A stretch of 64,000 nucleotides of DNA from Alphaproteobacteria bacterium MarineAlpha5_Bin12 (GTDB taxonomy: Bacteria > Pseudomonadota > Alphaproteobacteria > HIMB59 > GCA-002718135). Location of the stretch: the NCBI GenBank assembly GCA_002937855.1, contig PTKS01000005.1, forward strand, positions 64,230 to 128,229, in the 5' to 3' direction. Of the stretch, positions 1,440 to 61,147 are shown piece after piece. Numbering within the stretch: the stretch's first letter is position 1; the number at the start of each line of letters is the position of its first letter. The notes under the pieces are model-generated. The model was given only the letters and a program-made list of their open reading frames with translations, did no database searches and was not told the DNA's origin. A program made the translations under genes and the position numbers.

Positions 1440-1450
1440 AAAAAAAATTT

Positions 1451-1738: not shown

Positions 1739-1749
1739 CTTAGATCTTA

Positions 1750-5421: not shown

Positions 5422-5474
5422 AGCATAATTTTTTTAATATAAATTTTTTTTTATTTTATCTAGTTTTTGTTTTG

Positions 5475-6227: not shown

Positions 6228-6228
6228 T

Positions 6229-7331: not shown

Positions 7332-7334
7332 TTT

Positions 7335-8291: not shown

Positions 8292-8292
8292 T

Positions 8293-8916: not shown

Positions 8917-8966
8917 ATATAACCTTTTTTTCGTATATTAAAATGTTATATCACTTATAATAAAAG

Positions 8967-9881: not shown

Positions 9882-9885
9882 ATTT

Positions 9886-10617: not shown

Positions 10618-10661
10618 AATGCTAATTATATTAATTAATTATAAAAAAATACATTAAATTT

Positions 10662-11789: not shown

Positions 11790-11794
11790 GTTTT

Positions 11795-13771: not shown

Positions 13772-13826
13772 TTTTTACTTTAATAATGTTATTACTACAT
13801 ATAAATAATCTCAGTAGAAACAAATA

Positions 13827-24486: not shown

Positions 24487-24497
24487 ATATTAAAAGT

Positions 24498-27407: not shown

Positions 27408-27408
27408 A

Positions 27409-29163: not shown

Positions 29164-30049
29164 TTGATGAAGTTATTAAATATAAAAATATTATTAAGCC
29201 TAAATAATTATTGTATTTAAAATAATTTTCACAACTTTTTTTTGAACTCATATTCCATTTACTTAAAAAAAATAGAAGACTTATTAGAATCATAATTAAA
29301 ATAATAGAACTGATAAAAGACAAAGACATCATTAGATTTAAAATTAATATTGATAAAATAAATAAAGAATAAAATATCATTACTAAATACTTACCGTTAT
29401 TTCCAAATAAAATAGCTGTAGATTTTAAGTTAATCTTAATATCATCTATTCTATCTTGATAAGCATATATAGTATCATAACCCAAAGTCCAAAATATACA
29501 ACCTAAGTATAAAATCAATGTTTCTAAGGAATATATATGCTGAAATTGAGCTGCAGATATAAATATGCCCCAACTAAAGGTTACGCCTAAAATAAGTTGA
29601 GGCCAATTAGTAAATCTTTTCATTAGTGGGTAAATTAATATTAAAGGTAAAGAAGCTAATGATACTATAATCGCCATTATATTAAAATTTATTAAAATTA
29701 ATAATGAAAAAAATAAAAGCAATACCATAAATAAAAATGCTTCTAATGAATTAATTGCGCCACTAGTAATGGGCCTTTTTGAAGTTCTTTCGATTTTAAT
29801 ATCTATAAATCTATCAAAATAATCATTTATTATACATCCTGCGCTTCTCATAAAAAAAGACCCAAAAAAAAATAAAATATACCATTTGATTTCTTTAACA
29901 GAAAATACAGCTAGAGCGAACCAACATGGCCACATTAGAAGAAAAAAACCAATTGGTTTTTCAAATCTAATTAACTGTAATAAGCCTGATATTTTTTCTG
30001 GCAAAATATTATAAAGCCAAAAATGTGAAATTTGCTTTTTTTGTCTCAT
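29156..30049 (-). CDS. ubiA: 4-hydroxybenzoate polyprenyltransferase
   Basis: 297 aa polytopic membrane protein. NDYFDRFIDIKIERT (NDxxDxxxD) and YAYQDRIDD motifs. Confidence 0.85.
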   Translation of the reverse strand: MRQKKQISHFWLYNILPEKISGLLQLIRFEKPIGFFLLMWPCWFALAVFSVKEIKWYILFFFGSFFMRSAGCIINDYFDRFIDIKIERTSKRPITSGAINSLEAFLFMVLLLFFSLLILINFNIMAIIVSLASLPLILIYPLMKRFTNWPQLILGVTFSWGIFISAAQFQHIYSLETLILYLGCIFWTLGYDTIYAYQDRIDDIKINLKSTAILFGNNGKYLVMIFYSLFILSILILNLMMSLSFISSIILIMILISLLFFLSKWNMSSKKSCENYFKYNNYLGLIIFLYLITSSNV

Positions 30050-48585: not shown

Positions 48586-48897
48586 TTATACTCCTGCGTT
48601 AAATTTAATTATTGTCATAATGTAAGTTATTAAAGTAACAAGAAAAATTAGAGGCATTATATTTTGTCGTTGTATCATCAATTCAAAGGTTTTAAGAATT
48701 GATATTCTAGTCATAATAATGTGTAGAATTATTCTAGCCACAAGAAGATAAAAATAACATTCAAGTAATAGACTTGGTTTAAGGGGATTAAATTTTCTCC
48801 ATCTTCTATAAGCAAGTATAACATAAAATTTGTATACTTTTTCAATCCATGGTAAATTTTTTTTATCTTGTTTTATTCTTTTTAATTTTGTTGTCAT
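48586..48897 (-). CDS. Hypothetical membrane protein, last gene of the minus-strand island operon
   Basis: 103 aa. Basic N-terminus followed by two to three hydrophobic segments. 4-nt overlap with the upstream DUF2130-type gene. No family recognised. Confidence 0.4.
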   Translation of the reverse strand: MTTKLKRIKQDKKNLPWIEKVYKFYVILAYRRWRKFNPLKPSLLLECYFYLLVARIILHIIMTRISILKTFELMIQRQNIMPLIFLVTLITYIMTIIKFNAGV

Positions 48898-50009
48898 TTT
48901 TTTTGGGGACTTGGTAATTCCAGTTTCTCGACATTTTTTATAGAATTCCCAGCAATACCTTTTAAAGACCCATAAATATTTGACGTACTTTTTATGATCG
49001 TTGTGTGTAGTTTCTCTCTTTTAGACCATTGTGTATTAAAGGATCTTTTTTCAGATTCTAGATCTTCTTGAAGCTTAATGAAGCTATTTACTATTGTCTC
49101 GACTTCATTACGAAATTCATGACTGATTATGTAATTATACATAAGAGAAGTTTTATTGGTTCTGTTTTTTTGAGATCCTATGATATTAGATACCTCGCAC
49201 GTCATAATGCGCAATGAATGAATAAGAAATTTAAATTGTGTAATGTTACATACCCATACGTTTTTTAATTGTTGTCCTGCAAGCAAATTTTTTGGAAGAA
49301 CATCAGTAACTATAACAGCAATCTGACATCCGCTGTTTTTTGCATCTTCCTTAACTTTTTCAATCCAAGAATTTTGAAATTCCTTAGCTCTTTTACTTTC
49401 TATACATATTTTACCAGCTATTTCTCCATTTATCATGACTTCATGCACAACATCAGCACCTCTTGCCCCTTTCTTTATTTCCGTTATGTTATCTTCTGGA
49501 AATTCTTTTCGCATCCATTCTTCAATTTGAATTTCCTGAGCTTCACCCTGAAGTTGCACAGAGCCTTGGCCAGCACGTTTTTGCATTTTTTCTAAATCGG
49601 AGCGTAATTGTTCTATTTTTATAGTTTTCTCTTGTATTAGCGTATCCTTCTTATCGAGCTCTAGTCCCAGTTTATCTTCATATTGCAGAGCAATCTCACT
49701 TTCCATTTCTTTATTTTTTCTCTCCAAAGACTGCATCTTTGTTTTCATTTTATTAAATTCTACTACTTTCTCAGAATAAGTTTTTAATTCTAAGTCCTTT
49801 TGTTTCATTTCTTCTTCATATTCATTAACAATTTTATTTTTCAATTTTTTTTCTGTTTCTTTTCGAGCCTTCTCTCTTTCCTGGTCAATCTTTTTGTCAA
49901 AAGTATGTTGCATTTCCTCTTGATAGGCAGAGGCTATAGCTTTTTTTATATCGACTTTCTCATGACAATGAGGACAGCGAATATGTTGAGTATCTTTATT
50001 TTGTGTCAT
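48894..50009 (-). CDS. DUF2130-type protein: N-terminal Zn-ribbon-like CPHC, long coiled coil, C-terminal PD-(D/E)XK-like domain
   Basis: 371 aa. IRCPHCHEKV, about 130 aa of K/E/Q-rich heptad-like sequence, then SVQLQGEAQE..FPED.ITEIKKGARGADVVHEV....GKICIESKRAKEF. I recognise this as the DUF2130 pattern with a D...E-S-K nuclease-fold motif. Confidence 0.7.
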   Translation of the reverse strand: MTQNKDTQHIRCPHCHEKVDIKKAIASAYQEEMQHTFDKKIDQEREKARKETEKKLKNKIVNEYEEEMKQKDLELKTYSEKVVEFNKMKTKMQSLERKNKEMESEIALQYEDKLGLELDKKDTLIQEKTIKIEQLRSDLEKMQKRAGQGSVQLQGEAQEIQIEEWMRKEFPEDNITEIKKGARGADVVHEVMINGEIAGKICIESKRAKEFQNSWIEKVKEDAKNSGCQIAVIVTDVLPKNLLAGQQLKNVWVCNITQFKFLIHSLRIMTCEVSNIIGSQKNRTNKTSLMYNYIISHEFRNEVETIVNSFIKLQEDLESEKRSFNTQWSKREKLHTTIIKSTSNIYGSLKGIAGNSIKNVEKLELPSPQKK

Positions 50010-50010
50010 T

Positions 50011-50115
50011 TTAAAAGAACCATTTCATTAAGAAGTAAATTAAAACAACAAAACCAATGATAGAAATTATAAACGACAATGCACTACCAAAAAGACCAAA
50101 TATGAAGTTTAACAT
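50011..50115 (-). CDS. Unlisted 34-aa single-pass TM peptide (MLNFIFGLFGSALSFIISIIGFVVLIYFLMKWFF)
   Basis: Own translation. Its ATG overlaps the upstream stop as TAATG (50117-50113 on the minus strand). Its TAA stop (50013-50011) sits 1 nt before the DUF2130 ATG (50009). The ORF exactly fills the apparent 105-nt gap. Confidence 0.5.
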   Translation of the reverse strand: MLNFIFGLFGSALSFIISIIGFVVLIYFLMKWFF

Positions 50116-51068
50116 TATAATTCCTCTTGCATTTTTTTAGAGAAACAACTGAAATGAATAATAGTTTCATCTAACATAAGTATTGTGGCACAAATATCTT
50201 TATTATTAATTGTAAATAATTGACCCAGGCCAGAATTTTTACACTGTTTGGCAATAGAATTATTTGCATTAAAAATAATATTATTTGCATCTTTTATTGT
50301 TGGTATTAAATTATCTCTTTTTCTATTTTCCATTTCATCTAATGCATAACTTTTAAGTATTTGTGGATATAGTGATTGGAAAATATTTTTATTTGAAAAT
50401 AATTCAAAACCTAGAATATTTTTACCTATTGCAAAAATAACACCTATTGCATCTTCAGGCATTGTAAGATGCTTAAGATAATTTTCCATTAATAGTTCAT
50501 TATTTTTATAGAGATCTTGCATACTTTCACTTGAAGAGTAAGTATCAAAAGAATTAAATTTTTTATTTATTTGTTCCCATGTTTGTTCCTGATCTGCTGC
50601 TTCATTATAGTTTGAAGAAATATCTTCATCTATATTTTTTTGCATTTTTTCCATTTTTGCAAATCTACCTTTTGCAAACATAGAAGAATTTCGTGAAGCA
50701 AATTGTCTAGATGTTCTACTCCATCTACCTTTTTCACTGCAAAGAACATTTAGTTTCATTTTTGTTATTCCAGGAATAATAGAAGATACTGTTGCAATTC
50801 TATTTTGCTTTAATTCAAAACCAGCTATTGTTTGACCATCAATGATAAAAATTGGAGTAGTATGAAAATTTTCAACCTCAACTTCAGGTACATATCCTTC
50901 ATCACTAATTTCAGTAATTTTTAAATTATTTTCATTTAAAGCTTTTGTAAAATGAGTAATATTTTGTTTAATATTTTCACCTATAATGGGGAAAACACTC
51001 AAGTTTTTATAGGTTTTTAAAGTACCTATTGAAATTTTTTCAAGTGTATTGTTATTTTTTTTCATCAT
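50115..51068 (-). CDS. DUF6569/ARPP-1-like protein, first gene of the minus-strand island operon
   Basis: 317 aa. The N-terminal pattern NLSVFPI...F(T)KALNENNLKITEISDEGYVPEVEVEN....PIFIIDGQTIAGFELKQNR......IP....KLNVLCSEKGRWS matches my memory of this family's conserved core (L.VFPL, V.E.v.N, ll.dGE.l.GakQnR, v.C.E.gRW). Confidence 0.6.
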   Translation of the reverse strand: MMKKNNNTLEKISIGTLKTYKNLSVFPIIGENIKQNITHFTKALNENNLKITEISDEGYVPEVEVENFHTTPIFIIDGQTIAGFELKQNRIATVSSIIPGITKMKLNVLCSEKGRWSRTSRQFASRNSSMFAKGRFAKMEKMQKNIDEDISSNYNEAADQEQTWEQINKKFNSFDTYSSSESMQDLYKNNELLMENYLKHLTMPEDAIGVIFAIGKNILGFELFSNKNIFQSLYPQILKSYALDEMENRKRDNLIPTIKDANNIIFNANNSIAKQCKNSGLGQLFTINNKDICATILMLDETIIHFSCFSKKMQEEL

Positions 51069-51140
51069 TAAGTATTTTCTGTTAATCTTAACAATAAAAA
51101 TTTTTTTTTGATATTCTAGTGGTAGAAAGAAATTTTTTAT

Positions 51141-51165
51141 TTATTATTATTATTATTATTATTAT
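51141..51165. repeat. Perfect trinucleotide microsatellite (TTA/ATT), about 8 units
   Basis: Direct reading: ttattattattattattattattat, ending at the ATG (51164) of the ATPase gene. It lies inside the 95-nt divergent intergenic region. Confidence 0.9.
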
Positions 51166-53416
51166 GATTGAGAAATTTCAAATAAGTAATTTTAAAGGAT
51201 TTAATGAACCTTTATCTTTAGATATTGCACCTATTACACTTATTTTTGGACCTAATAGCGTTGGAAAATCTTCAATTATTGAAGGTTTGCAAATGATAAA
51301 ACACAGTGGTCCAAATGATCTACAAACATATCTAGAAAATAGACTTGATCTTGGAAGACCAGATGAAATTCTCTCCAGGCAAAATAAAAGCATTAATCCA
51401 AACATTACGTATTCATTTTCTTTTAATTATGCAGGTTTGAATAAACCAAAAGGACCACTTCTTAATAATCTTGAAAGTATTGGAATTAAGAAAAATTTTA
51501 ATCTTACAAAAGATAATATTTATGTGAATAATAAAATTTCTATATTATTTAATAAAAGATTATTTTTTTCACTTAAACTGGGATTCAAAACTAACAAACC
51601 TGAGGAGGTTGAAAAATTAAATCAATTAGAGGGTAAAATAGATTTAATTGATTTAGTACAAATTACTGACAGAATTCCAGAAAACGATCCTTTTTGGAGT
51701 ACATCGCAGCAAGCAGTTTTCACTATAGACACAATTAGTGATAATGATGAGTACTGGGATGATATTTTAAATTTTTTAACTAGAAAAAACATAAGTACAG
51801 AAATATCTAATAAAATTGACTTTGTTATTAATGAAAGAAATCAGAATTCAAGATCTAAGGAGATTACAAAAAGTGAATTAGAGACTTTAATCAAACAATA
51901 TAATGAAAATATAAATTTATTAAAAAAAGGAAATAAAGAAATAATAAATTTTATAAATAAAGTGATTATTGAAAAAGAGTTTAAAGATTTACCTTATAAA
52001 AAATATTTATTAAATTATTTAATCAATAATAAAAAATATGTAAAAAGTGATAAAATTATTTCTCTATTAAAAGAAAATGAAGATACAGTTCCTAATTTAA
52101 ATAAAAAAAGTAATCTTTGGGAGATGGTGACAAATGATTATATTGATAATCTAAATTTAATTAATCAAAAGGAAAAAAATGAGAAAGAAATATTAAAATA
52201 TCTAATCGAAGATATTAACAACAAACTTATCGCAGATGTTGGACTTTCATTAATAAGAGGCGTGACAATAAAAGGTGATAAGGAATATAAATTTGACATT
52301 AATGACGAGTTAATCAACGCTCAATTACAAGCTTCTTTAGATGAAGTAAAAAAAAATGTTGAGAAAATAGATGATATTAATTATTCTATTTCAACTGAAA
52401 ATAGTGATACTTTTAAAGATTTTTCTATAAAAAAACTTAGAGACATTAATATTTTAATTAGTGCATGGTCAAGAACATTACAATTAAGTCAAGAATTAGG
52501 TCCTACGGGTAGAAAAGAAATTAAATCTTCAATCATAAAAGATATTAAACGTAATCTTATTATTGAAGTGGAAGTCAAAGGTTCGGAAAAACAGAGAATT
52601 TTTTATTATAGAAAAAAAAATACACTAATTGATCTATTTACATTAGCAATTGAATCAAATAATCGTAAAGTTGATAATCTATTTCCCAATCTAGAAGAAA
52701 TTATTGATCATTGTGATTCTTTGATAGAAGAAAATCTTGGCAATTTTACTTTTGTCCCATGTTTTCGAAGTTATGAGAGAGTTTATAGATCTACAAGAAA
52801 ATCAATATCAGCAAATCTTGACATAAGTACTTCTACTGCAGATCTTGTCGAAACGTTATCAAGAGATAAGGAATTACTAAAAAAACTTAATGATTGGTTA
52901 AAACAATCAACGCTTAATTCTGAAATTGTTATAGAAGAAGGATCAGATTCAAGAATCATGTATGTCATAGAAGGAGAGAATAAAGTTAAAATAAATATTG
53001 CAGATGCTGGCTCAGGTATTCGAAATTTAATTCCTATCATTGCTGTTATCATTAACGCTAACAGAAAAATTCATCCCTATAGACGAAAAGGAATGGAGAC
53101 AAAGCCTATAATTGCCTTAGAAGAACCAGAGGTTAATTTACATCCCAGACTTCAAATTGATTTAGCAAGCTTTGTTGCAAATTTTAGTAATAAAAGAGAT
53201 TTTATTATTGAAACACATAGTGAGCTGATGATGAGAAAAATTCAACAACTTATAAGAGATAAGGAATCAAATCTTACCTATGAAGATGTTAAGGTTTATT
53301 GTGTTAGAAAAAACCAGGAAGGACATTATGTTGATGAAATAAGAATTGATAGCAATGGAAAGTTTCTTGATGAATGGCCTCATGGTTATTTTAATGAAAG
53401 AATTGAACTTCTGTAA
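51164..53416 (+). CDS. ABC/SMC-like (AAA_15/AAA_21-type) ATPase with very long inter-motif insert and DUF3696-like C-terminus
   Basis: The N-terminus FQISNFKGF...LIFGPNSVGKSS (Walker A at about 51248) is typical when translation starts at ATG 51164. Walker B/D-loop IALEEPEVNLHP lies at about 53111, with H-loop ETHS. The tail G.FLDEWPHGYFNER is DUF3696-like. About 610 aa of K/E/N-rich sequence separate Walker A from Walker B. The track start GTG 51119 is probably upstream of the real start. Confidence 0.8.
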   Translation: MIEKFQISNFKGFNEPLSLDIAPITLIFGPNSVGKSSIIEGLQMIKHSGPNDLQTYLENRLDLGRPDEILSRQNKSINPNITYSFSFNYAGLNKPKGPLLNNLESIGIKKNFNLTKDNIYVNNKISILFNKRLFFSLKLGFKTNKPEEVEKLNQLEGKIDLIDLVQITDRIPENDPFWSTSQQAVFTIDTISDNDEYWDDILNFLTRKNISTEISNKIDFVINERNQNSRSKEITKSELETLIKQYNENINLLKKGNKEIINFINKVIIEKEFKDLPYKKYLLNYLINNKKYVKSDKIISLLKENEDTVPNLNKKSNLWEMVTNDYIDNLNLINQKEKNEKEILKYLIEDINNKLIADVGLSLIRGVTIKGDKEYKFDINDELINAQLQASLDEVKKNVEKIDDINYSISTENSDTFKDFSIKKLRDINILISAWSRTLQLSQELGPTGRKEIKSSIIKDIKRNLIIEVEVKGSEKQRIFYYRKKNTLIDLFTLAIESNNRKVDNLFPNLEEIIDHCDSLIEENLGNFTFVPCFRSYERVYRSTRKSISANLDISTSTADLVETLSRDKELLKKLNDWLKQSTLNSEIVIEEGSDSRIMYVIEGENKVKINIADAGSGIRNLIPIIAVIINANRKIHPYRRKGMETKPIIALEEPEVNLHPRLQIDLASFVANFSNKRDFIIETHSELMMRKIQQLIRDKESNLTYEDVKVYCVRKNQEGHYVDEIRIDSNGKFLDEWPHGYFNERIELL

Positions 53417-53418
53417 AG

Positions 53419-54579
53419 ATGATTTATAATTATGCACTTACACATTATTGTTGTGAATCAGCAGTATTTGAGGAAAAAACATTTCAAAACTTAGTTAATC
53501 TTTTCCAAAAAACAAGGGATGAAAATATAATTTTAATTATAGATAAAAACAAATATTTAATTGATTGTTTGTTAAAAGGTTTAAAAAGTTATTATAAAAC
53601 TAGTTCTGATGAATATTCATATTTTACTGAAATTTTATTGACTTTAGATGATAAGAATAAAATTTATAGACATGATTTTATTTATGATGAAAATAATGTA
53701 AAAGAATTTATTGAATCAATTAAGAGTTCAGGAATTATTATAGATGCGATAATTGTAGACAAAGAAGAAGAAAATACATTTAAAAACGCAATACCTATTG
53801 AAAAGTTTTCTCTAGAACATCAAAATGATAAAGAAAGAATTACAGTAAATAAAAATGGTATCAACCTTATAGATCATGAAATCAATTCACTTGATACAAT
53901 TTATCAAAGAATTGTCTGGGATTCTGTTGTTTTTAAGTATTATGATTATAATTTAGGTAATGGAACATTTAAAACTGAAGAAATTCGAAATCTTGATTTA
54001 ATAAAAAACAACTCAGAGAATGAATCTTCCAAATGGAAAATTTTTAATAATGATATTACATCGCACAAATTAAGACAAATTAATAAATTTAAATTAGGAT
54101 TTCAAAATCTTATAAAAGCTATAAAATCCATAAGTAAAAAAATTAAAAAAGAAAAAAATGTCTTAATTGAGGTATTCACACCTCAACCTTTAAAAAATTT
54201 AAAATCACTAAATGCTGAAGATAAAATTAAAAATATGCAACAAAATCTTTTAATGCTTCAGCTTTTAGACGAAAAGATATGTAGCGAGATTCAAGAGGAA
54301 AATATTAGTTTAAAAATTTATTTTTATGACTCTTTATTAGATGGAAAAAGTAAATATGGTAGCGCCGAACATAATCGTCTGTTTTTTTCCTTGTCTTCCA
54401 ATCAAATTGATGTTGCAAAAGGCCTTGATATATATGACTTAAAAACAAAAGAAATTCAGCAAGGAAAATGGCGTTTTTTAGGTTCTAAGGAAGATACACA
54501 ACAGGACATAAGCAACAGAAACCCATTAGATATAAAGAAATACAAAGAAAATATTGAACATTATTTGGGAAATTTATAA
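53419..54579 (+). CDS. Hypothetical protein, tightly coupled partner of the ATPase (no recognisable domain)
   Basis: 386 aa ORF starting 2 nt after the ATPase stop. I found no nuclease, Toprim, HNH, TIR, Sir2 or TM motif. Coding status is supported by length and coupling only. Confidence 0.5.
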   Translation: MIYNYALTHYCCESAVFEEKTFQNLVNLFQKTRDENIILIIDKNKYLIDCLLKGLKSYYKTSSDEYSYFTEILLTLDDKNKIYRHDFIYDENNVKEFIESIKSSGIIIDAIIVDKEEENTFKNAIPIEKFSLEHQNDKERITVNKNGINLIDHEINSLDTIYQRIVWDSVVFKYYDYNLGNGTFKTEEIRNLDLIKNNSENESSKWKIFNNDITSHKLRQINKFKLGFQNLIKAIKSISKKIKKEKNVLIEVFTPQPLKNLKSLNAEDKIKNMQQNLLMLQLLDEKICSEIQEENISLKIYFYDSLLDGKSKYGSAEHNRLFFSLSSNQIDVAKGLDIYDLKTKEIQQGKWRFLGSKEDTQQDISNRNPLDIKKYKENIEHYLGNL

Positions 54580-54638: not shown

Positions 54639-55457
54639 ATGTATAATTCAATAGCGGGCCAGCTGCGGGTCCCAGAGCCTCTTAAAGATGAACTTGGAAA
54701 GAAATCCAAGGAACCTCTATTATCATATCAAGAAGAGATCGATTTATTCAATAAATATAGATCTTATAATGATAAAAAAAGTTACGAGAGAATATTTTTT
54801 TCTCATATAAGGCTAGTCAATAAATTTGCTAAATTATTTGCAAAATCTAATCCTGAGCTATTTTATGAATTACAAAGTGAAGGTTTTAAGGGGTTAGCAA
54901 TAGCTATAAAAAAATTTGATATTTCAAAATCTAGACTCTGTACATATGCTTCTTATTGGATCCTTCATTCTATTGATACATTTTTTGTCCAAAATAACTT
55001 TGGTAATATTCATCTAGGAAAAAGCTTTACAGAAAAAAAAGTTTTTTATTTGTTAAAAAAATCTTTTATTGAACCAGATAAAATCAAAGAAGAAGATTTA
55101 ATAAAAATTGCTAAAGAAAATAAATTAAGTGTGGCAAAAATTAAAGATATAGTCGCACTAATTTCATACAATCATTTAAATGCAGAAGATGTATCGGTGA
55201 TTGATGATAGACCTAATCAACTTGATAATATAATTACAAAAGAATCATTTAACATTAATTTAAAAATTTTTAAAAAAAGAGTATCTGAGTTAAACAAGAG
55301 AGATAAAAGAATATTTGAGAAAAAACACTTTTTAAATAAAACATATAAAGAAATAGCCAAAGAAGAGGGTATTTCTTTTCAGCGAGTTAGTCAGATAGAT
55401 AATAGAAGTATTGATAACCTTAAATCACAACTCAAAAACTGTTATGAGGCTGCTTAA
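54639..55457 (+). CDS. Sigma-70 family RNA polymerase sigma factor, divergent RpoH (sigma-32)-like
   Basis: 272 aa, collinear with RpoH. Region 2 is IRLVNKFAK...ELQSEGFKGLAIAIKKFD...YASYWILHSI. An RpoH-box-like segment is GKSFTEKKVFYLLKK. Region 4.2 HTH is TYKEIAKEEGISFQRVSQIDNRSIDNLK. Confidence 0.75.
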   Translation: MYNSIAGQLRVPEPLKDELGKKSKEPLLSYQEEIDLFNKYRSYNDKKSYERIFFSHIRLVNKFAKLFAKSNPELFYELQSEGFKGLAIAIKKFDISKSRLCTYASYWILHSIDTFFVQNNFGNIHLGKSFTEKKVFYLLKKSFIEPDKIKEEDLIKIAKENKLSVAKIKDIVALISYNHLNAEDVSVIDDRPNQLDNIITKESFNINLKIFKKRVSELNKRDKRIFEKKHFLNKTYKEIAKEEGISFQRVSQIDNRSIDNLKSQLKNCYEAA

Positions 55458-55493: not shown

Positions 55494-55865
55494 ATGGATA
55501 ATCAAAACACTACAAATGAATTCAAAATACGAATTCTTATTTTACTTGCCATTGCTGATAAAGACTTTCATAAAGATGAGGATAAGATGATTAAGTCTTT
55601 ACTAAAGAAACGTAATGTTGATATGCAAAATTATGAAACAATTAAAAATGAAATTTTCAATTCAGAAGATAATTTTGATAATTTATGTAGAGATTCTTTA
55701 AAAAAAATTAATAATGAAGATGATCAACAAGATTTATTAAAAATTCTTTTTTTATTATCAATGGCTGATCTAATTCTTCATGAAGATGAACTTCGCTTCA
55801 TTGAGCTTTGTGCTGTTGAATGGGGTATATATGGAAACAATTTAAAAGAAATGATTAATAATTAG
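55494..55865 (+). CDS. TerB-like small helical protein
   Basis: 123 aa. Two repeats of the hydrophobic-ADxxxHxDE pattern (LLAIADKDFHKDEDKMI and LLSMADLILHEDELRFI), as in TerB/DjlA-N type domains. Its stop lies 2 nt before the GHKL gene. Confidence 0.5.
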   Translation: MDNQNTTNEFKIRILILLAIADKDFHKDEDKMIKSLLKKRNVDMQNYETIKNEIFNSEDNFDNLCRDSLKKINNEDDQQDLLKILFLLSMADLILHEDELRFIELCAVEWGIYGNNLKEMINN

Positions 55866-55867: not shown

Positions 55868-57178
55868 ATGAATATAGAATTAATTCCTAGACCAAGTAGC
55901 ATGATCATTGCATTGAGATCATTTGGATATACACCTGAATCAGCTATTGCTGATATTATTGATAATTCAATTGCAGCAAATGCAAAAAATATTGATGTTA
56001 CAACATATGATGGCGGGGATAATAAAAATAACAATTATGTTTCAATATGTGATGACGGAAAAGGATTAAATGAAAAAGAATTAATTGAAAAAGCAATGCC
56101 TTGGGGGGCAAAGGATGAGCCAAGAGAATATTGCGATCTTGGAAAATTTGGATTTGGATTGAAATCTGCATCATTATCTCAATGTAAAAAATTAACTGTT
56201 ATTTCAAAAGGAAGTGAAGGAAAAATCAATTTAAAAAAATGGGATGTAGATCATGTTCAAAAAACAGATAAATGGGAAATAACTGATGAAATTACAGATG
56301 ATTTAAAACCACACATAAAAAAAATTGACCATAAACAAACAGGAACTTTAGTCTTGTGGCAAAATTTAGATAAACTTTATGAAGCCGATACTTACAATAA
56401 AAAATTTCAACACAGAATAATGAAGCGTGTCCAAAGGTTAGCTGAAAAACATATATCAATGATTTTTCATAACTTCGCTGATAATATAAATTTTACTTTA
56501 CAAGATGGCAAATTTCCCGTTGTAGCTTGGGACCCTTTTCACACTAATAATATTCAAACAATTGCAACGCCTTTAGAAACATTAGAATACAAAGATAGTA
56601 CAATTTCCATTATGTCTTTTATTCTTCCAGAAGAAAAATTCTTTGAAGATGAACAATATCATGGACCAACAGGTGATTGGAATGACAGACAAGGAATATA
56701 TATTTATAGAAAGGAAAGATTAATTGTGCCAGGAGGATGGCATAACATAGAATTAAGAAATAGACCTATATTAAGAAGAGAAAAATATAACCGTTTAAGA
56801 ATATTAGTTAATTATGATGGCAAAAATGATAATGATTGGAGACTAGATGTTAGAAAAAATAGTGTAATTATTCCTGGAGCTATAAAATACAAACTTAGTC
56901 AAATTGTTGAAGAACAATTAGAAAAATTACAAAAAAAGAATTTTAAATCAACACCCGTTATTAAATCTGGTGAAATTACTCCTTGGCTTATTCGAAATAA
57001 TTATGGAAAATTAAGTGCTAAAATAGACAGGAGCAATTTATTAGTTAAAAAGATTATGGATACTAATAAATTCAATAAAGATGAATTTGAAAATCTTTTA
57101 AAAATTTTAGAAAAAACTATCCCATTAGAAAATATTGATTTTAATAATTCTAGTGAGAAACTAATCCAAGAAAATTAA
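55868..57178 (+). CDS. GHKL (HATPase_c_3, MORC/paraMORC-like) ATPase
   Basis: 436 aa. N-box AIADIIDNSIAANA, G1 box ICDDGKGLNEKEL, G2 box GKFGFGLKSAS. Confidence 0.8.
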   Translation: MNIELIPRPSSMIIALRSFGYTPESAIADIIDNSIAANAKNIDVTTYDGGDNKNNNYVSICDDGKGLNEKELIEKAMPWGAKDEPREYCDLGKFGFGLKSASLSQCKKLTVISKGSEGKINLKKWDVDHVQKTDKWEITDEITDDLKPHIKKIDHKQTGTLVLWQNLDKLYEADTYNKKFQHRIMKRVQRLAEKHISMIFHNFADNINFTLQDGKFPVVAWDPFHTNNIQTIATPLETLEYKDSTISIMSFILPEEKFFEDEQYHGPTGDWNDRQGIYIYRKERLIVPGGWHNIELRNRPILRREKYNRLRILVNYDGKNDNDWRLDVRKNSVIIPGAIKYKLSQIVEEQLEKLQKKNFKSTPVIKSGEITPWLIRNNYGKLSAKIDRSNLLVKKIMDTNKFNKDEFENLLKILEKTIPLENIDFNNSSEKLIQEN

Positions 57179-57195
57179 GATATGGTAAAAATATA

Positions 57196-60141
57196 ATGAG
57201 TGCAGATGATTATAGATCAGCAAGACAGGCTATAATAAATATTATTAAACCAGATAATATAGAGGAAAATAAAGTTCCTACTGAGCAAGAAGCTGAAAAA
57301 CTAATTGATCAAACAATTGATAATATTTTCAATTTACAACCTCGATGGAAAGAAACTGTCGATAGAAAAATACTCCTAAAAGATTTGTTGCAACAAATGA
57401 CCGTTTTATTTCCTGATAAAGAAGTTATTTTTAAAAAAAGTGAAGGTAGTGATCATAAAGAATGGTTTGAAGATAAATGGAAAGAAGGTAAAATTAAATG
57501 GAATTATTATAAGAGATACCAAGAATATCTTGAATATTATTCAGACATGCCACCTTTAACAATTTCGAAATTGGATAGATTAACTACTAAAATTATTGAA
57601 CAAATTGAAGATCCAGAAAGAGACGATACATCATGGGATATAAGAGGATCGGTTATAGGTCAGGTTCAATCTGGTAAAACAGCAAACTATATAGGTTTAA
57701 TTAATAAGGCTCTAGATGCTGGCTATAAAAGAATTATTATTTTATGTGGACTTAACAATGACTTGAGATCGCAAACTCAACAAAGAATAGAAGAGGGGGT
57801 TACAGGACGAGCTTATTCTCAATCTGCTGGTTTACAGAACTTTAAAGTAGGGGTTGGTAACATTAATAATTTTTCTGATATTGATGGAAAAGTTCAACTT
57901 TGTACCACAAGGGACGATAACGGTGATTTCAATACAACAAGAGCAAGATCATTTCAACCTTCAGATGACACCCCTGTTATTCTAATAATTAAAAAAAATG
58001 TATCTGTTCTTGAAAACGTTCTTTTGTGGATTCTCAAATATGAAAGCCAAAATACTTGGCATGAAGAAAAAGATCCTTGGGAGTGGAGACAAAGACTAAA
58101 AAAAGATATTGAATCAATTGAAATTGACAATCGCAAAACAAAAGTCCCTCGTGTCAAAAACAGACCTGTTCTTTTGATAGATGATGAATGTGATCAAGCA
58201 TCTATTGATACAAATCTTGATACTGACATGTTACAAGGTGAACCAGATCCTGAACATGACCCAACATTAACGAATAAGTTAATAAGAAGAATTCTTGATG
58301 CTTACGATAAATCTGTTTATGTTGGTTATACAGCTACGCCATATGCCAATGTTTTTATTGATCCAAGACTAAAATCAAAACAAGCTGGAAAGGATATCTT
58401 TCCAGAAGATTTTATAATTAACCTTCCTGCACCAAGTAGTTATATTGGTCCTGCGCAAATTTTTTCAGATATAGAAAAAAAATCTAACGTGATTAATAGT
58501 ATTTCAGATTATTTAGATGAAGGTGAAGATCCAAATGATAGAGCTGCATCAGGATGGATGCCTCCAAGGCATGATATTAATCATATACCACAATATAAAA
58601 ACCAAAATGAATTGCCAACTTCTCTCAAAGAAGCAATAATATCTTTTCTCATATCTTGTGCAGTAAGAAAATTAAGGGGTTATGATAAGGGAAATAGTAT
58701 GCTTGTTCATGTTTCAAGATTTGTATCTGTTTCAGAAAGAGCTGGAAACCAAATTCAAGAATTTATTAATGATCTAGAGTCTATTAATGTAGGAAATTTC
58801 TCTTATGAAAGTTTAATTAAAGAAATTTGGGATTCTAAATTTACTAATCATATAAATGATAATTTTAATTTTGATAAAAACAAAATTAAATTTGATGATG
58901 TTTATTTAATTATTCAGCAATCATTACAAACTAATAAAACTGTAGTAGAACTTGTTAATGGATCTGCTTTAAGCAAAAGTGAATACGACAAATCATTAAA
59001 AGCAAATAAAAATATTATTGCTGTAGGTGGACAAAGATTATCAAGAGGTCTTACGTTGAAGAGCCTTATGATTAGTTATTTTCTAAGAACAGCCAGAAGA
59101 CCACTTACTGATACAATGACACAAATGGGTCGATGGTTTGGATATAGACCTAACTATAGTGATTTGTGTAAACTTTACATAACTGATGAATTAGAGCAAA
59201 ACTTCAGAGACTTTGCGATTGCAGACTATGAGTTTAGAAATAAAATTGAAGAAATGAATGAGCAAGAGAGAACTCCTAAGAATTATCAATTAATGGTGCA
59301 AAGAGATCCAAACTATGCTTTATCTTCAAGAAACAAGCTTCACTATACAAGTGTGGTAAGACTGGATTTTAGTGATTATCATGGACAAACAATTGTTCTC
59401 CATAAGGATAATTCTTCGGAAGCTAAAAATAATAGAGATAGTGTAAGAGATTTAGTTCTCTCTTTAAATAAACCAGATCAAAATAGAGAAAATAAAAATA
59501 ATTGTTATTTATGGAAAAAAACTGAAAGTAAAAAAATTATTAAATTTTTACAGAAATATAAAACACACGAAAATAATACAAAAATTCATACTGAAAGTTT
59601 TATTGATTATATTCAAAGGATGAATAATTATGGTGAGTTAAAATTTTGGTCCGTTGGTATAATTTCCAAGACATCAACTGAAGATAAAGTAAGATTAATA
59701 CATAATGATTTAGTTAACTTTCCTGTTAATTGTATGGAAAGATCACCAAATAAAAAAAATAAAAAAACTGATGATAAAAATACACATACTATAGGAATTT
59801 TGGATCAAGAAATTGATGAATCCTTTGATTTAAATAATGCAGAATATAATGCTGCTATAGAAAAATGGGAATTGGAAGATGGTAGAAGATTAAATAAATC
59901 AAAAAGATTTTATTACAGATGGGCAAGAGGACGTGCATATTTAGATAACTATTATCAAGATATAGAAAACGATAATTATCATAGAGGTCAATTATTAATT
60001 TATCCTATTATAAATCCAAAAGAACCAAAAAAAGATCAATTACCTATGATAGGAATAACTATAACTTTTCCTGGATTAAGTACTAATGATAGCAGAGAAG
60101 TTATTATGTCAAACTTTCAAGCAGAAAGAATACATGAATAA
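57196..60141 (+). CDS. Z1 domain protein (SF2 helicase-like NTPase)
   Basis: 981 aa. Walker A GQVQSGKTANY and Walker B LLIDDECDQAS. The Z1 signature is VGGQRLSRGLTLKSLMISYFLR....DTMTQMGRWFGYRPNYSDLCKLY. Confidence 0.85.
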   Translation: MSADDYRSARQAIINIIKPDNIEENKVPTEQEAEKLIDQTIDNIFNLQPRWKETVDRKILLKDLLQQMTVLFPDKEVIFKKSEGSDHKEWFEDKWKEGKIKWNYYKRYQEYLEYYSDMPPLTISKLDRLTTKIIEQIEDPERDDTSWDIRGSVIGQVQSGKTANYIGLINKALDAGYKRIIILCGLNNDLRSQTQQRIEEGVTGRAYSQSAGLQNFKVGVGNINNFSDIDGKVQLCTTRDDNGDFNTTRARSFQPSDDTPVILIIKKNVSVLENVLLWILKYESQNTWHEEKDPWEWRQRLKKDIESIEIDNRKTKVPRVKNRPVLLIDDECDQASIDTNLDTDMLQGEPDPEHDPTLTNKLIRRILDAYDKSVYVGYTATPYANVFIDPRLKSKQAGKDIFPEDFIINLPAPSSYIGPAQIFSDIEKKSNVINSISDYLDEGEDPNDRAASGWMPPRHDINHIPQYKNQNELPTSLKEAIISFLISCAVRKLRGYDKGNSMLVHVSRFVSVSERAGNQIQEFINDLESINVGNFSYESLIKEIWDSKFTNHINDNFNFDKNKIKFDDVYLIIQQSLQTNKTVVELVNGSALSKSEYDKSLKANKNIIAVGGQRLSRGLTLKSLMISYFLRTARRPLTDTMTQMGRWFGYRPNYSDLCKLYITDELEQNFRDFAIADYEFRNKIEEMNEQERTPKNYQLMVQRDPNYALSSRNKLHYTSVVRLDFSDYHGQTIVLHKDNSSEAKNNRDSVRDLVLSLNKPDQNRENKNNCYLWKKTESKKIIKFLQKYKTHENNTKIHTESFIDYIQRMNNYGELKFWSVGIISKTSTEDKVRLIHNDLVNFPVNCMERSPNKKNKKTDDKNTHTIGILDQEIDESFDLNNAEYNAAIEKWELEDGRRLNKSKRFYYRWARGRAYLDNYYQDIENDNYHRGQLLIYPIINPKEPKKDQLPMIGITITFPGLSTNDSREVIMSNFQAERIHE

Positions 60142-61147
60142 TGAAAGTACTGATATTTTTAAAGATACTTTAGATTCAGTTAAAACTTCTATTAAACAAT
60201 CAGGATTGATAGCTAAACTACTTCCTTTAGAAAATAACAATAGGATATTTGCAGCTTATAAATTACCAGAAAAACAAATTAGCCTTATTGCAGAAGTTCC
60301 AACTAAATTTGTTAAATTTGAAAAGCAATTTGAATCAAAAGGATTCAGCGTTACAAATAAAAAAAAAGATACCAATAATGATGTTACGCAAGTTATTATT
60401 TCTTTGATTGATAATAATTATAAGGATGTTTTTTTTGAAATTACTGAGCTTTTTATTAAAAAAATTAAAAATATAAAAGATGACAGAGATTTTTATAATA
60501 TCCTTATTGAAAGAATAGAAATATATTCAAATTTTTTTGATAAACATTCAAAACAAGGATTACTTATTAATGCACAACAAGGCCTTTATGCTGAATTAGA
60601 TATTATGGAAAATTTTTTCATCAAATATTTTAACATACCTCTTACTCTTGAAATGTGGCAAGCCCCTCAAAGTGGGTTACATGATTTTACTTATAAGGGT
60701 GTTTCTATGGAAGTAAAATCAACTCATAAATTTCCAGCTCAAGACGTAAGTATTTCAAGCGAATTTCAACTAAATGACAAAAGAGTTTCTAATTTATATC
60801 TTGCTGTACTAGAGGTTAAGCGAGGATCAATTGGAGGAGAAAGTATAAGAGAAAAAATTGAAAAAATTAGAGAATTAATTGCGTCTCAAAACTCAGAATT
60901 AAATACTAAATTCAATGATCTTCTTAATAAATATGGTTATTATGATGCTCATTCACACAACTATTATGTAAGTTTTAAAACTAATTTAGTTCATTATTAC
61001 AAAGTTGTGGAAAATTTTCCACGAATACTACCTGACAGAATTTTAGATGGTGTTAAAAGTATTAGATATAAAATAGATTTAAATAAATGTGTAAATTTTA
61101 TCACTGAAGGAAGTTCTATTAAACAAAATTTTAAAGATGTCGTATAA
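60134..61147 (+). CDS. PD-(D/E)XK motif protein (restriction-endonuclease fold)
   Basis: GLHDF...VSMEVKST gives the D...E-x-K motif. The ATG at 60134 overlaps the Z1 stop (ATGAATAA), and the track ORF start at 60086 is an alternative. The position between Z1 and AIPR is as in the known neighbourhood. Confidence 0.7.
   Translation: MNNESTDIFKDTLDSVKTSIKQSGLIAKLLPLENNNRIFAAYKLPEKQISLIAEVPTKFVKFEKQFESKGFSVTNKKKDTNNDVTQVIISLIDNNYKDVFFEITELFIKKIKNIKDDRDFYNILIERIEIYSNFFDKHSKQGLLINAQQGLYAELDIMENFFIKYFNIPLTLEMWQAPQSGLHDFTYKGVSMEVKSTHKFPAQDVSISSEFQLNDKRVSNLYLAVLEVKRGSIGGESIREKIEKIRELIASQNSELNTKFNDLLNKYGYYDAHSHNYYVSFKTNLVHYYKVVENFPRILPDRILDGVKSIRYKIDLNKCVNFITEGSSIKQNFKDVV

What the first reader, a model, noticed from the sequence alone, without database searches (positions are those of the whole stretch)
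48586..51068. Candidate undescribed four-gene membrane-linked nuclease operon (DUF6569/ARPP-1-like, 34-aa TM peptide, DUF2130, 103-aa membrane protein)
Four minus-strand ORFs are packed with a TAATG overlap (50115), a 1-nt spacer (50010) and a 4-nt overlap (48894-48897), which implies co-translation. The first protein carries the L.VFP / GxxxxQNR / C.E.GRW core I associate with the uncharacterised DUF6569/ARPP-1 family. The third is a DUF2130-type protein with a CPHC Zn-ribbon-like start, a long coiled coil and a GAD...ESK PD-(D/E)XK-like C-terminus. Two small hydrophobic proteins accompany them. To my knowledge none of these families has an experimentally assigned function. The combination of a nuclease-fold protein, a sensor-like protein and membrane peptides next to R-M/Abi modules is the architecture expected of an abortive-infection or conflict system. 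It also shares a 95-nt divergent control region with the ATPase module.
Basis: partly seen in the sequence, partly recalled or inferred. Interest (0 to 1): 0.75.

Follow-up and report, generated by a model that had tools for sequence, protein, structure and literature searches.

The report
ARPP-1 plus DUF2130 nuclease operon
A tightly packed four-gene operon in a marine alphaproteobacterium pairs two protein families of unknown function, a putative enzyme (ARPP-1) and a coiled-coil nuclease (DUF2130), with two tiny membrane proteins inside a phage-defence island; the same pairing turns up independently in soil bacteria, which makes it a credible but untested candidate defence module.

Summary
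Four minus-strand ORFs are joined by TAATG, a 1-nt spacer and ATGA. They encode a full-length ARPP-1/DUF6569 protein (Pfam 2.5e-66), a 34-aa all-hydrophobic peptide, a DUF2130 protein (1.5e-50) and a 103-aa membrane protein. DUF2130 has an invariant CPxC, a 125-residue helix and an intact D186/E204-S-K206 PD-(D/E)XK core. All four genes are kept, in order and under purifying selection, in seven or more relatives at about 60% identity.

Most DUF2130 genes elsewhere are solo: 77 of 80 species loci lack ARPP-1. The pair does recur independently in a soil lineage, as WYL regulator, DUF2130, sometimes a Cys-phosphatase, then ARPP-1. Neither protein of that pair is a close relative of the marine one. 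The two small membrane proteins are confined to the marine clade.

The module sits in a defence island, beside an AAA_15/DUF3696 ATPase and MzaB-E. No defence-system model matches it.

My best reading is a stripped-down variant of the ARPP-centred conflict systems predicted by Iyer et al. (2022), with DUF2130 as the nuclease effector. A DNA-damage-response role is the main rival. Nothing here has been tested experimentally. Novelty: new variant of a known, computationally predicted kind. Interest is moderate.

The parts
50115..51068 (-). Gene 1: ARPP-1 / DUF6569 family protein, 317 aa, cytoplasmic, with the conserved Gln88-Asn-Arg and Cys110-x-Glu-x-Gly-Arg-Trp motifs
   Evidence: Pfam PF20208 at E 2.5e-66, full length. 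Invariant residues. No hydrophobic segment. AlphaFold2 model with pLDDT 87 and pTM 0.89, with no PDB or BFVD fold match.
50011..50115 (-). Gene 2: 34-aa single-span hydrophobic peptide (MLNFIFGLFGSALSFIISIIGFVVLIYFLMKWFF). Its start shares one base with the ARPP-1 stop (TAATG).
   Evidence: Conserved at 76% identity in relatives whose ARPP-1 is about 60% identical, with dN/dS 0.07-0.19. Kyte-Doolittle maximum 2.69. Found only in the marine clade.
48894..50009 (-). Gene 3: DUF2130 protein, 371 aa. It has an N-terminal CPxC knuckle, one helix of about 125 residues (21-146), a PD-(D/E)XK core (152-254; D186, E204, K206) and two long C-terminal helices.
   Evidence: Pfam PF09903 at E 1.5e-50. Invariant columns. 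AlphaFold2 model with pLDDT 80. Foldseek PDB hits to BstEII, Hjc, HindIII, Holliday-junction resolvases, Bax1 and the SPARDA nuclease. dN/dS about 0.09.
48586..48897 (-). Gene 4: 103-aa basic protein with two predicted membrane segments. Its ATGA start overlaps the DUF2130 stop. It is the last gene of the island on this side.
   Evidence: Orthologous 101-105-aa ORFs occupy the same position with the same overlap in L008, L012-L014 and L092, at 26-47% identity. Hydropathy. No Pfam, NCBIfam or PADLOC match.
51069..51163 (.). 95-nt divergent intergenic region between ARPP-1 and the AAA_15 ATPase. It contains a 21-nt element (51115-51135, TCTAGTGGTAGAAAGAAATTT) conserved in relative L013, and an (ATT)n run directly before the ATPase ATG.
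   Evidence: Promoter-like matches are no more frequent than in shuffled sequence, so the regulatory role is inferred only.
51164..53416 (+). Divergent neighbour, possibly linked: an AAA_15/AAA_21/DUF3696 ABC-type ATPase, followed by a 386-aa protein of unknown family at 53419-54579
   Evidence: Pfam. PADLOC PDC-M55A at 1e-37, NsnB at 3e-33 and AriA at 6e-25. It is the divergent neighbour of the four-gene operon in every marine relative whose contig reaches that far.

Best explanation
This is a clade-specific, translationally coupled conflict module (anti-phage or anti-mobile-element) built around two families that are functionally linked.

DUF2130 is the effector. It is a cytoplasmic PD-(D/E)XK nuclease carried on a long coiled coil. 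It probably dimerises through that helix and the N-terminal CPxC knuckle.

ARPP-1 is its partner. It is a putative Cys/Gln-dependent enzyme or ligand-binding protein that acts on a ribose- or ADP-ribose-type moiety. I propose that it detects or processes an infection-associated modification and thereby licenses or restrains the nuclease.

The 34-aa peptide and the 103-aa protein are lineage-specific accessories. They most plausibly hold the complex at the inner membrane, where incoming DNA appears, or act as a second, membrane-directed effector.

The module reads as a reduced version of the ARG/phosphatase/WYL/REase/ARPP systems predicted by Iyer et al. 2022. It has lost the glycohydrolase, the phosphatase and the WYL regulator.

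What is shown: the gene structure, family membership, intact catalytic residues, purifying selection, recurrence of the pair in two unrelated lineages, and the island context.

What is inferred: nuclease activity, the ARPP-1 ligand, the direction of regulation, the membrane tethering, and the anti-phage role itself.
For: 1. Operon: start/stop overlaps join all four genes. Order and overlaps are kept in L007-L009, L012-L014 and L092 at 57-63% protein identity with saturated dS. dN/dS is 0.14-0.31 for ARPP-1, 0.07-0.19 for the peptide, about 0.09 for DUF2130 and 0.4-0.6 for the 103-aa protein.

2. Effector: D186/E204/K206 are invariant, and the predicted core matches restriction enzymes and Holliday-junction resolvases. 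DUF2130 is listed as a PD-(D/E)XK family (PMC3424549).

3. Independent recurrence: in a soil, Betaproteobacteria-type DUF2130 subfamily, ARPP-1 lies on the same strand within 1-4 kb in 4 of 8 loci. L115 has WYL, DUF2130, Cys-phosphatase, ARPP-1. L184 and L186 have WYL, DUF2130, toxin-antitoxin inserts, ARPP-1. L173 has an ARPP-1 remnant directly upstream of DUF2130. The marine DUF2130 is only 26-28% identical to the soil one, but 34-43% identical to solo Bacteroidota and Gammaproteobacteria versions. The marine ARPP-1 is 25-28% identical to the soil one, against 29-31% to other ARPP-1 proteins. The two pairings are therefore not sister groups in either family, so they were probably assembled separately.

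4. Analogous pairing: on a Fervidibacter plasmid, ARPP-1 is followed by an SNF2/NOV_C helicase and RmuC, another coiled-coil PD-(D/E)XK nuclease.

5. ARPP-1 neighbours in 80 metagenome loci are WYL/WCX (10), ADP-ribosylglycohydrolase (4) and rhodanese-type phosphatases (4-6). This reproduces the conflict-system context of PMC9503650.

6. Island context: an AAA_15/DUF3696 ATPase and MzaB-E lie next door. Elsewhere DUF2130 sits beside Gabija-like GajA/GajB, type I R-M, AbiE and many toxin-antitoxin pairs.
Against: - No PADLOC or NCBIfam defence model matches any of the four proteins.
- In 77 of 80 species-representative loci, DUF2130 is a solo gene with unrelated, largely housekeeping neighbours. 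It is conserved at 33-43% identity across phyla, which is more typical of a housekeeping repair gene than of a fast-evolving effector.
- In the soil loci, the pair is separated by inserted toxin-antitoxin genes rather than being a tight operon. Both genes could simply be frequent residents of the same kind of island.
- The recurrent regulator is an HTH-WYL-WCX protein of the DriD/PafBC type, which senses ssDNA in DNA-damage responses.
- The whole island is syntenic in the marine clade, so conservation of adjacency there is partly vertical inheritance.
- ARPP-1 has no structural relative that would indicate its chemistry.
- No experimental data exist for any component.
Confidence: 0.5

Rival explanations
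1. This is a DNA-damage or stress-response module, not an immune system. DUF2130 is a repair or recombination nuclease comparable to RmuC. ARPP-1 processes a damaged or modified sugar or nucleotide adduct, in the SRAP-like cross-linking role suggested by Iyer et al. The genes are induced by DNA damage.
For: - DUF2130 is present in at least 589 species genomes, mostly as a solo gene among ordinary genes, and is strongly conserved across phyla.
- In 7 of 8 soil loci it lies just downstream of an HTH_11-WYL-WCX regulator. A WYL-type regulator also recurs near it in about 7 Bacteroidota loci.
- Regulators of that architecture (DriD, PafBC) sense ssDNA and switch on DNA-damage regulons.
- ARPP-1 is also often next to WYL regulators. 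A HIRAN (DNA 3'-end binding) partner is reported for it in PMC9503650.
Against: - In the window there is no WYL regulator, and the operon is embedded in a defence island.
- The soil loci are packed with toxin-antitoxin, R-M, AbiE and DndB genes.
- WYL regulators also control bona fide defence systems, so the WYL link does not discriminate between the two readings.
- DUF2130 occurs on 44 plasmids, many of them conjugative or mobilizable.
- The two small membrane proteins have no obvious role in repair.
Confidence: 0.25
2. The adjacency carries no shared function. ARPP-1 plus the peptide, and DUF2130 plus the 103-aa protein, are two separate small modules that happen to lie side by side in an island inherited vertically by one marine clade. 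The recurrence in soil bacteria reflects a shared preference for the same insertion hot spots.
For: - Only the marine clade has the tight four-gene form.
- The whole island, including the ATPase, sigma-like, TerB and Mza genes, is syntenic in that clade.
- In soil loci, the two genes are 1-4 kb apart with unrelated toxin-antitoxin pairs between them, and half of those loci lack ARPP-1.
Against: - Start/stop overlaps across all three junctions argue for coupled translation of one transcript.
- The two pairings involve non-sister members of both families.
- In all four soil cases the genes are on the same strand, under the same upstream WYL regulator.
- As a rough estimate of my own, chance placement of a family this sparse within a few kb of a given gene is of the order of 1e-4 per locus.
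Confidence: 0.12
3. This is a toxin-antitoxin-like or abortive-infection cassette in which the small hydrophobic proteins are the killing agents (membrane depolarisation). The two large proteins would be regulators or immunity factors rather than effectors.
For: - The 34-aa peptide is a pure transmembrane helix, like type I toxins or holin-like peptides, and is the most strongly constrained small ORF.
- The module lies among Abi-type genes, including AIPR/MzaE.
Against: - The nuclease catalytic triad is invariant, so DUF2130 is unlikely to be a mere regulator.
- The membrane proteins are absent wherever else the ARPP-1/DUF2130 pair occurs.
- No family match links them to known toxins.
Confidence: 0.08

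Closest known systems
ARG-centred ARPP conflict systems predicted by Iyer, Burroughs, Anantharaman and Aravind, Viruses 2022 (PMC9503650, section 3.8)
   Same: It contains a bona fide ARPP-1 protein with the conserved Cys and Gln, coupled to a restriction-endonuclease-fold protein and located in a conflict-gene island. The soil counterpart L115 carries the predicted WYL regulator and rhodanese-type phosphatase as well.
   Different: The window has no ADP-ribosylglycohydrolase, no phosphatase and no WYL or Nudix regulator in the genes scanned, 44.4-63.2 kb. The nuclease is DUF2130, which the text of that paper does not name. Two small membrane proteins are added. The published systems are themselves untested predictions.
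Shield (ShdA), a membrane-bound RmuC-domain nuclease defence system of Pseudomonas (PMC10270631)
   Same: The working analogy is a coiled-coil PD-(D/E)XK nuclease acting at the membrane with small accessory proteins that modulate it. ShdA degrades DNA in vitro and protects against phage.
   Different: DUF2130 is not an RmuC protein. It has no Pfam RmuC hit, no PADLOC hit, and hhalign against an RmuC gives probability 1%. DUF2130 has no transmembrane helix of its own, so any membrane link would have to come from the separate 34-aa and 103-aa proteins.
WYL-regulated DNA-damage response genes (DriD of Caulobacter, PafBC of mycobacteria)
   Same: In soil bacteria, DUF2130, and often ARPP-1, lies directly downstream of an HTH-WYL-WCX regulator of the same architecture.
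   Different: No WYL gene is present in the window or its marine relatives. In the literature I searched, DUF2130 is not mentioned in any DriD or PafBC paper.
Gabija, PARIS and other OLD/AAA_15 ATPase defence systems
   Same: An AAA_15-type ATPase is the conserved divergent neighbour here. On an Aliarcobacter plasmid, DUF2130 lies 2 nt upstream of a GajA-like AAA_15-TOPRIM gene and a GajB-like UvrD helicase.
   Different: The window's ATPase lacks a TOPRIM domain, and its 386-aa partner has no family. Nothing shows that it works with the four-gene operon. The soil and Fervidibacter versions of the pair lack such an ATPase.

Membership tests
ARPP-1 (Pfam PF20208; annotated by NCBI as DUF6569) | Profile match above the curated cut-off over the whole domain | tested here: met
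   224.4 bits against a cut-off of 27, residues 12-309 on profile positions 2-297 of 297. A homologue is annotated 'DUF6569 family protein'.
ARPP-1 (Pfam PF20208; annotated by NCBI as DUF6569) | Absolutely conserved cysteine and glutamine (Iyer et al. 2022) | tested here: met
   Q88 and C110 are invariant in 27 sequences at 27-60% identity, together with N89, R90, E112, R115 and W116.
ARPP-1 (Pfam PF20208; annotated by NCBI as DUF6569) | [quoted passage not shown] | tested here: inconclusive
   A confident AlphaFold2 model (pLDDT 87, pTM 0.89) has beta-rich N- and C-terminal parts with a helical middle. I could not compare it with the published RoseTTAFold model, and no PDB or BFVD structure matches.
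DUF2130 (Pfam PF09903, COG4487), a PD-(D/E)XK superfamily member | Profile match above the curated cut-off | tested here: met
   172.3 bits against a cut-off of 26.7, residues 123-366 on profile positions 3-253 of 255.
DUF2130 (Pfam PF09903, COG4487), a PD-(D/E)XK superfamily member | Catalytic D...(D/E)xK residues present | tested here: met
   D186, E204 and K206 are invariant in alignment A1.
DUF2130 (Pfam PF09903, COG4487), a PD-(D/E)XK superfamily member | Restriction-endonuclease-like alpha/beta core | tested here: met
   Foldseek against the PDB gives BstEII 1.1e-3, Hjc 5e-3, HindIII, ST1444 resolvase, Bax1 and EcoT38I. All are nuclease folds, though the E-values are weak.
DUF2130 (Pfam PF09903, COG4487), a PD-(D/E)XK superfamily member | Nuclease activity | not testable with these tools
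   I found no biochemical study of any DUF2130 protein.
ARG-centred ARPP conflict system (Iyer et al. 2022) | ADP-ribosylglycohydrolase (ARG) core gene | tested here: not met
   No ADP_ribosyl_GH hit in any gene scanned between 44.4 and 63.2 kb of the window. None appears in the marine relatives' loci.
ARG-centred ARPP conflict system (Iyer et al. 2022) | Coupled phosphatase (rhodanese-phosphatase or equivalent) | tested here: not met
   None in the window. One is present in the soil counterpart L115 (PTP-SAK and Tc-R-P hits).
ARG-centred ARPP conflict system (Iyer et al. 2022) | WYL- or Nudix-HTH regulator | tested here: not met
   None in the window. A WYL-WCX regulator is present in 7 of 8 soil DUF2130 loci.
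ARG-centred ARPP conflict system (Iyer et al. 2022) | ARPP together with a restriction-endonuclease-fold effector | tested here: met
   ARPP-1 and DUF2130 lie in one operon.
Shield (ShdA) | RmuC domain | tested here: not met
   No RmuC hit even at E up to 10. No PADLOC hit. hhalign against a genuine RmuC (Pfam 6e-84) gives probability 1%.
Shield (ShdA) | Transmembrane anchor on the nuclease itself | tested here: not met
   The maximum 19-residue hydropathy of the DUF2130 protein is 1.14, with no segment above threshold.
Any catalogued anti-phage system (PADLOC-DB v2, NCBIfam) | A match of any of the four proteins to a defence-system model | tested here: not met
   Zero families for all four proteins in PADLOC at E up to 0.01 and in NCBIfam at E up to 0.001.

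The most novel reading that the evidence does not exclude
ARPP-1 and DUF2130 together form a previously unrecognised, widely scattered immune module. In this reading, a cysteine-dependent ARPP-1 enzyme recognises or covalently captures an ADP-ribose- or sugar-modified nucleic acid or protein made during infection. It thereby switches on a coiled-coil, zinc-hook-like dimeric nuclease. In the marine lineage, the nuclease is stationed at the inner membrane by two dedicated micro-proteins. That would give both DUFs their first function and would be the first tested example of the host 'anti-ADP-ribosylation' immunity predicted in 2022.
Probability: 0.25. Interest if true: 0.75.

Novelty: new variant of a known kind. 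Interest (0 to 1): 0.55.

Why it matters
ARPP-1 has about 4,900 sequence clusters at 50% identity. DUF2130 is found in at least 589 species genomes. Both are large families with no experimentally assigned function.

This locus offers a compact 2.5-kb, four-gene form in which the two are translationally coupled. Comparative data show that the same two families came together separately in a distant lineage. Together these give a concrete and cheap experiment: clone the operon, challenge it with phage and plasmid, and mutate D186/E204/K206 and C110/Q88.

A positive result would test the prediction that bacteria carry dedicated systems centred on ADP-ribose or sugar chemistry with nuclease effectors. 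It would also assign a role to two DUFs. The locus is further an example of defence-island content in streamlined, AT-rich marine Alphaproteobacteria, where few systems have been characterised. A negative result would point towards a WYL-controlled DNA-damage function for DUF2130.

Tried and rejected
- PADLOC and NCBIfam scans of the four proteins found nothing.
- A sequence search of the PDB with the DUF2130 profile gave only coiled-coil noise such as adhesin A and ATP synthase b.
- hhalign of the DUF2130 profile against a genuine RmuC gave no similarity. I therefore dropped the idea that DUF2130 is a divergent RmuC and keep RmuC/Shield only as an architectural analogy.
- Promoter and terminator scans of 48.3-51.4 kb did not exceed shuffled controls in this AT-rich DNA, so I make no regulatory claim from them.
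- No tRNA or Rfam element marks an integration site in the window.
- HMMs of the 34-aa and 103-aa proteins found no relatives in any of the roughly 180 fetched loci outside the marine clade. Pfam at E up to 10 gave nothing usable.
- A search for a small hydrophobic ORF directly after ARPP-1 in 80 other ARPP-1 loci found only the marine-clade case.
- I considered a phage origin and rejected it. ARPP-1 is absent from 50,697 phage records and has one partial hit in IMG/VR. DUF2130 occurs in 7 Helicobacter prophage-like records and 4 IMG/VR contigs.
- The supplement of Iyer et al. is not held, so I could not check whether DUF2130 is among their unnamed 'REase' partners.

Full report
**1. What is in the sequence**

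One search lists four minus-strand ORFs at exactly the stated coordinates: 50115-51068 (317 aa), 50011-50115 (34 aa), 48894-50009 (371 aa) and 48586-48897 (103 aa). Reading the junctions directly confirms the packing. The first is 'TAATG' with one shared base at 50115. The second is 'TAA a ATG' with a 1-nt spacer at 50010. The third is 'ATGA' with a 4-nt overlap at 48894-48897.

The window is very AT-rich, with GC of 22-35%. It has no tRNA or Rfam element. It derives from the Tara Oceans MAG 'Alphaproteobacteria bacterium MarineAlpha5_Bin12' (GCA_002719835.1). The same DNA is on a 128.7-kb marine metagenome contig.

**2. Family assignments**

The 317-aa protein is a full-length ARPP-1 protein (PF20208, E 2.5e-66). 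The 371-aa protein is a DUF2130 protein (PF09903, E 1.5e-50). The two small proteins match nothing in Pfam, NCBIfam or PADLOC. The two large ones match no defence-system model.

- In ARPP-1, Q88-N89-R90, C110, E112, R115 and W116 are invariant in 27 sequences down to 27% identity.
- In DUF2130, C12-P13-x-C15, the QGSxQxQGE stretch, D186 and E204-S205-K206 are invariant in 20 sequences at 35-62% identity.

**3. Structure**

The DUF2130 model (pLDDT 80) has the following parts:
- a small N-terminal beta-hairpin carrying CPxC;
- one uninterrupted helix from residue 21 to 146;
- an alpha/beta core at 152-254;
- two long C-terminal helices.

Foldseek against the PDB returns only restriction-endonuclease-fold proteins at the top: BstEII, Hjc, HindIII, archaeal and bacterial Holliday-junction resolvases, Bax1 and the SPARDA nuclease. 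The E-values are weak, from 1e-3 to 0.1. Together with the invariant D/E-x-K and the published classification (PMC3424549), the PD-(D/E)XK assignment is sound.

Only two cysteines are conserved in the N-terminal knuckle. It cannot be a classical four-ligand zinc ribbon in a monomer. A Rad50-hook-like intermolecular zinc site is my speculation.

The ARPP-1 model is confident (pLDDT 87, pTM 0.89). It has no significant match in the PDB (best E 0.12) or in BFVD. This agrees with the published statement that it is unrelated to characterised domains.

Neither large protein has a hydrophobic segment. The 34-aa peptide is one transmembrane helix from end to end. The 103-aa protein has a basic N-terminus (18 K+R) and two hydrophobic stretches.

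**4. Are the small ORFs genes, and is the operon conserved?**

Relatives with ARPP-1 at 57-63% identity keep the same four genes in the same order with the same overlaps. These relatives are marine metagenome contigs and three single-cell genomes of uncultured Alphaproteobacteria: L007-L009, L012-L014 and L092.

| Gene | Identity to relatives | dN/dS |
|---|---|---|
| ARPP-1 | 57-63% | 0.14-0.31 |
| 34-aa peptide | 76% | 0.07-0.19 |
| DUF2130 | about 60% | about 0.09 |
| 103-aa protein | 26-47% | 0.4-0.6 (saturated) |

The 103-aa protein keeps its length, position, overlap and a conserved R..W..F.P...LL..Y pattern. All four are therefore real genes.

**5. Does the pairing recur? From the DUF2130 side**

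A pattern scan of one genome per species found at least 589 DUF2130 genes. Of the 80 best loci, only the three from the same marine clade have ARPP-1 within 8 kb. This held with a clade-biased HMM and with a broad one.

In the other 77 loci, DUF2130 is a solo gene. These come from Bacteroidota, Gammaproteobacteria, Campylobacterota and other phyla, at 33-40% identity. Clustering of 409 neighbours gives no conserved partner. Pfam and PADLOC summaries of 139 neighbours show ordinary genes and generic helicase or AAA hits. A WYL regulator appears in a few.

**6. Does the pairing recur? From the ARPP-1 side**

ARPP-1 is a large family, with 4,896 clusters at E up to 1e-3. The window's clade is an isolated branch, and its next relative is about 30% identical.

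In 80 metagenome loci, the neighbours reproduce the published picture: WYL/WCX (10), ADP-ribosylglycohydrolase (4), rhodanese-type phosphatases (4-6), DUF2779 and helicases. The Sphingomonas homologue sits next to a WYL regulator, a phosphatase-ARG fusion and McrBC. DUF2130 appeared in two of the 80 loci: L092 (marine clade) and L115.

**7. The second lineage**

L115 is a high-GC soil contig. It encodes an HTH_11-WYL-WCX regulator, DUF2130, a Cys-phosphatase (HCxxGxxR; PTP-SAK and Tc-R-P hits), a further ORF that I read as a probable HTH gene (not scanned), and ARPP-1, all on one strand.

I followed its DUF2130 subfamily, which is 65-82% identical to L115's and is named Betaproteobacteria/Burkholderiales where a name is given, into seven more contigs.

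| Feature | Loci |
|---|---|
| WYL-WCX regulator just upstream of DUF2130 | L172, L173, L174, L175, L184, L186; with L115, 7 of 8 loci |
| No WYL regulator | L185 |
| Intact ARPP-1 downstream on the same strand | L184 (1.2 kb away), L186 (3.7 kb away) |
| Truncated ARPP-1 remnant directly upstream of DUF2130 (E 6e-18) | L173 |

The space between the genes is filled with toxin-antitoxin pairs: HigB/A-like, PIN/Phd, HepT/MNT and ParE. The surroundings hold type I R-M, AbiE, HipA, Mrr and DndB.

The marine and soil pairings are not sister groups. The window's DUF2130 is 26-28% identical to the soil subfamily but 34-43% identical to solo versions. The window's ARPP-1 is 25-28% identical to the soil ARPP-1 but 29-31% identical to many others. 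The two families have therefore been brought together at least twice. This is the strongest argument for a functional link.

An architectural echo is a Fervidibacter plasmid on which ARPP-1 is followed by an SNF2/NOV_C helicase and RmuC, another coiled-coil PD-(D/E)XK nuclease.

**8. Context in the window**

The genes next to the operon are as follows.

| Coordinates | Strand | Gene | Evidence |
|---|---|---|---|
| 51164-53416 | + | AAA_15/AAA_21/DUF3696 ATPase (PADLOC PDC-M55A 1e-37, NsnB, AriA) | |
| 53419-54579 | + | 386-aa protein of unknown family | |
| 54639-55457 | + | sigma-70-like protein | |
| 55494-55865 | + | TerB | |
| 55868-63167 | + | MzaB, MzaC, MzaD, MzaE homologues | |
| up to 48480 | + | metabolic genes: luciferase-like, alpha/beta hydrolase, TPR, 2OG-Fe(II) oxygenase | |

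Relative L013 supports that start, because a stop codon precedes the same methionine there.

**9. Interpretation**

I read the locus as a reduced, lineage-specific variant of the ARPP-centred conflict systems predicted in 2022. DUF2130 is the nuclease effector. ARPP-1 is the partner that senses or processes a ribose- or ADP-ribose-type moiety. The two micro-proteins probably place the complex at the membrane or add a membrane-directed activity.

The closest experimentally studied analogy is Shield, whose membrane-bound RmuC nuclease ShdA protects Pseudomonas and is modulated by small accessory proteins. DUF2130 is not an RmuC protein by any test I could run.

The main rival is a DNA-damage-response role. 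It is favoured by the solo, well-conserved distribution of DUF2130 and by its WYL-WCX neighbours, since DriD and PafBC sense ssDNA. WYL regulators also control defence systems, so that evidence cuts both ways.

I put about 0.5 on a conflict or defence module with DUF2130 as effector, 0.25 on a damage-response role, and the rest on coincidental adjacency or a membrane-toxin cassette.

**10. Novelty and value**

In the searchable literature, DUF2130 appears only in a superfamily catalogue and in incidental lists. ARPP appears in one computational paper. I found no experimental work on either. I did not find the ARPP-1/DUF2130 association or the two micro-proteins described anywhere. I could not inspect the figures or supplement of Iyer et al..

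I rate this a new variant of a known, computationally predicted kind. Interest is moderate. It is not a surprise to a defence-systems specialist. It is a compact, testable entry point to two large families of unknown function.

Noticed in passing
[not shown]
   Followed up: partly
window 51164-54579 (+): An AAA_15/AAA_21/DUF3696 ATPase hits PADLOC PDC-M55A, NsnB and AriA models. It is followed by a 386-aa protein with no family. This pair is the divergent neighbour of the four-gene operon in every marine relative whose contig reaches that far, so the two modules could be one larger system.
   Followed up: partly
window about 51141-51163: A run of about eight ATT/TTA repeats lies immediately before the ATPase ATG. 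It would encode an isoleucine run if the upstream GTG at 51119 were used. It is absent from the relatives' intergenic regions, so it may be a strain-specific simple-sequence tract at a ribosome-binding region.
   Followed up: partly
window 51115-51135; L013 just upstream of 6947: A 21-nt element (TCTAGTGGTAGAAAGAAATTT) in the divergent intergenic region is 20/21 identical in relative L013, although the flanking proteins are only about 58% identical. It may be an operator or promoter element. It is not present in the L008/L012 type.
   Followed up: no
L184 4807-8105; L186 6001-11678; L173 2028-7128; L172 2225-7173: In soil bacteria, the interval between the WYL regulator, DUF2130 and ARPP-1 acts as an insertion hot spot for different toxin-antitoxin pairs: Gp49/HTH_37, PIN/PhdYeFM, HepT/NTP_transf_2, ParE and DUF433/DUF5615.
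   Followed up: partly
L174 11068-12693: A second, longer DUF2130 paralogue (541 aa) sits directly upstream of a type I restriction-modification specificity (Methylase_S) gene, 4 kb from the first DUF2130 copy.
   Followed up: no
L177 (Aliarcobacter butzleri plasmid NZ_CP104379.1) 5662-10868: DUF2130 ends 2 nt before a Gabija-like pair: an AAA_15 plus OLD-TOPRIM endonuclease, then a UvrD helicase. A DNA methyltransferase and RhuM follow.
   Followed up: partly
L178 (Candidatus Fervidibacter sacchari plasmid NZ_CP130455.1) 3621-12762: DUF4258, ARPP-1 (DUF6569), an SNF2/NOV_C helicase, RmuC and DUF1156 lie in a row, divergent from two sigma-70 family genes. This is a second case of a sigma factor next to an ARPP-1 module.
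   Followed up: partly
L176 (Bradyrhizobium japonicum plasmid CP126019.1) 3174-6948: A metallophosphoesterase, an AAA ATPase and DUF2130 lie in a row between IS elements and next to DNA methylases. 30 of the 44 plasmids carrying DUF2130 are from Bradyrhizobium.
   Followed up: no
L007 5600-10200: In this relative, DUF2130 is split into three ORFs and the ATPase region has only small ORFs. The contig is a polished long-read assembly, so these may be assembly frameshifts rather than real decay.
   Followed up: no
window 1-14000 and 24000-30000: These stretches have GC of 22-26%, against 29-35% in other parts of the window, and GC skew switches sign. I did not examine them.
   Followed up: no
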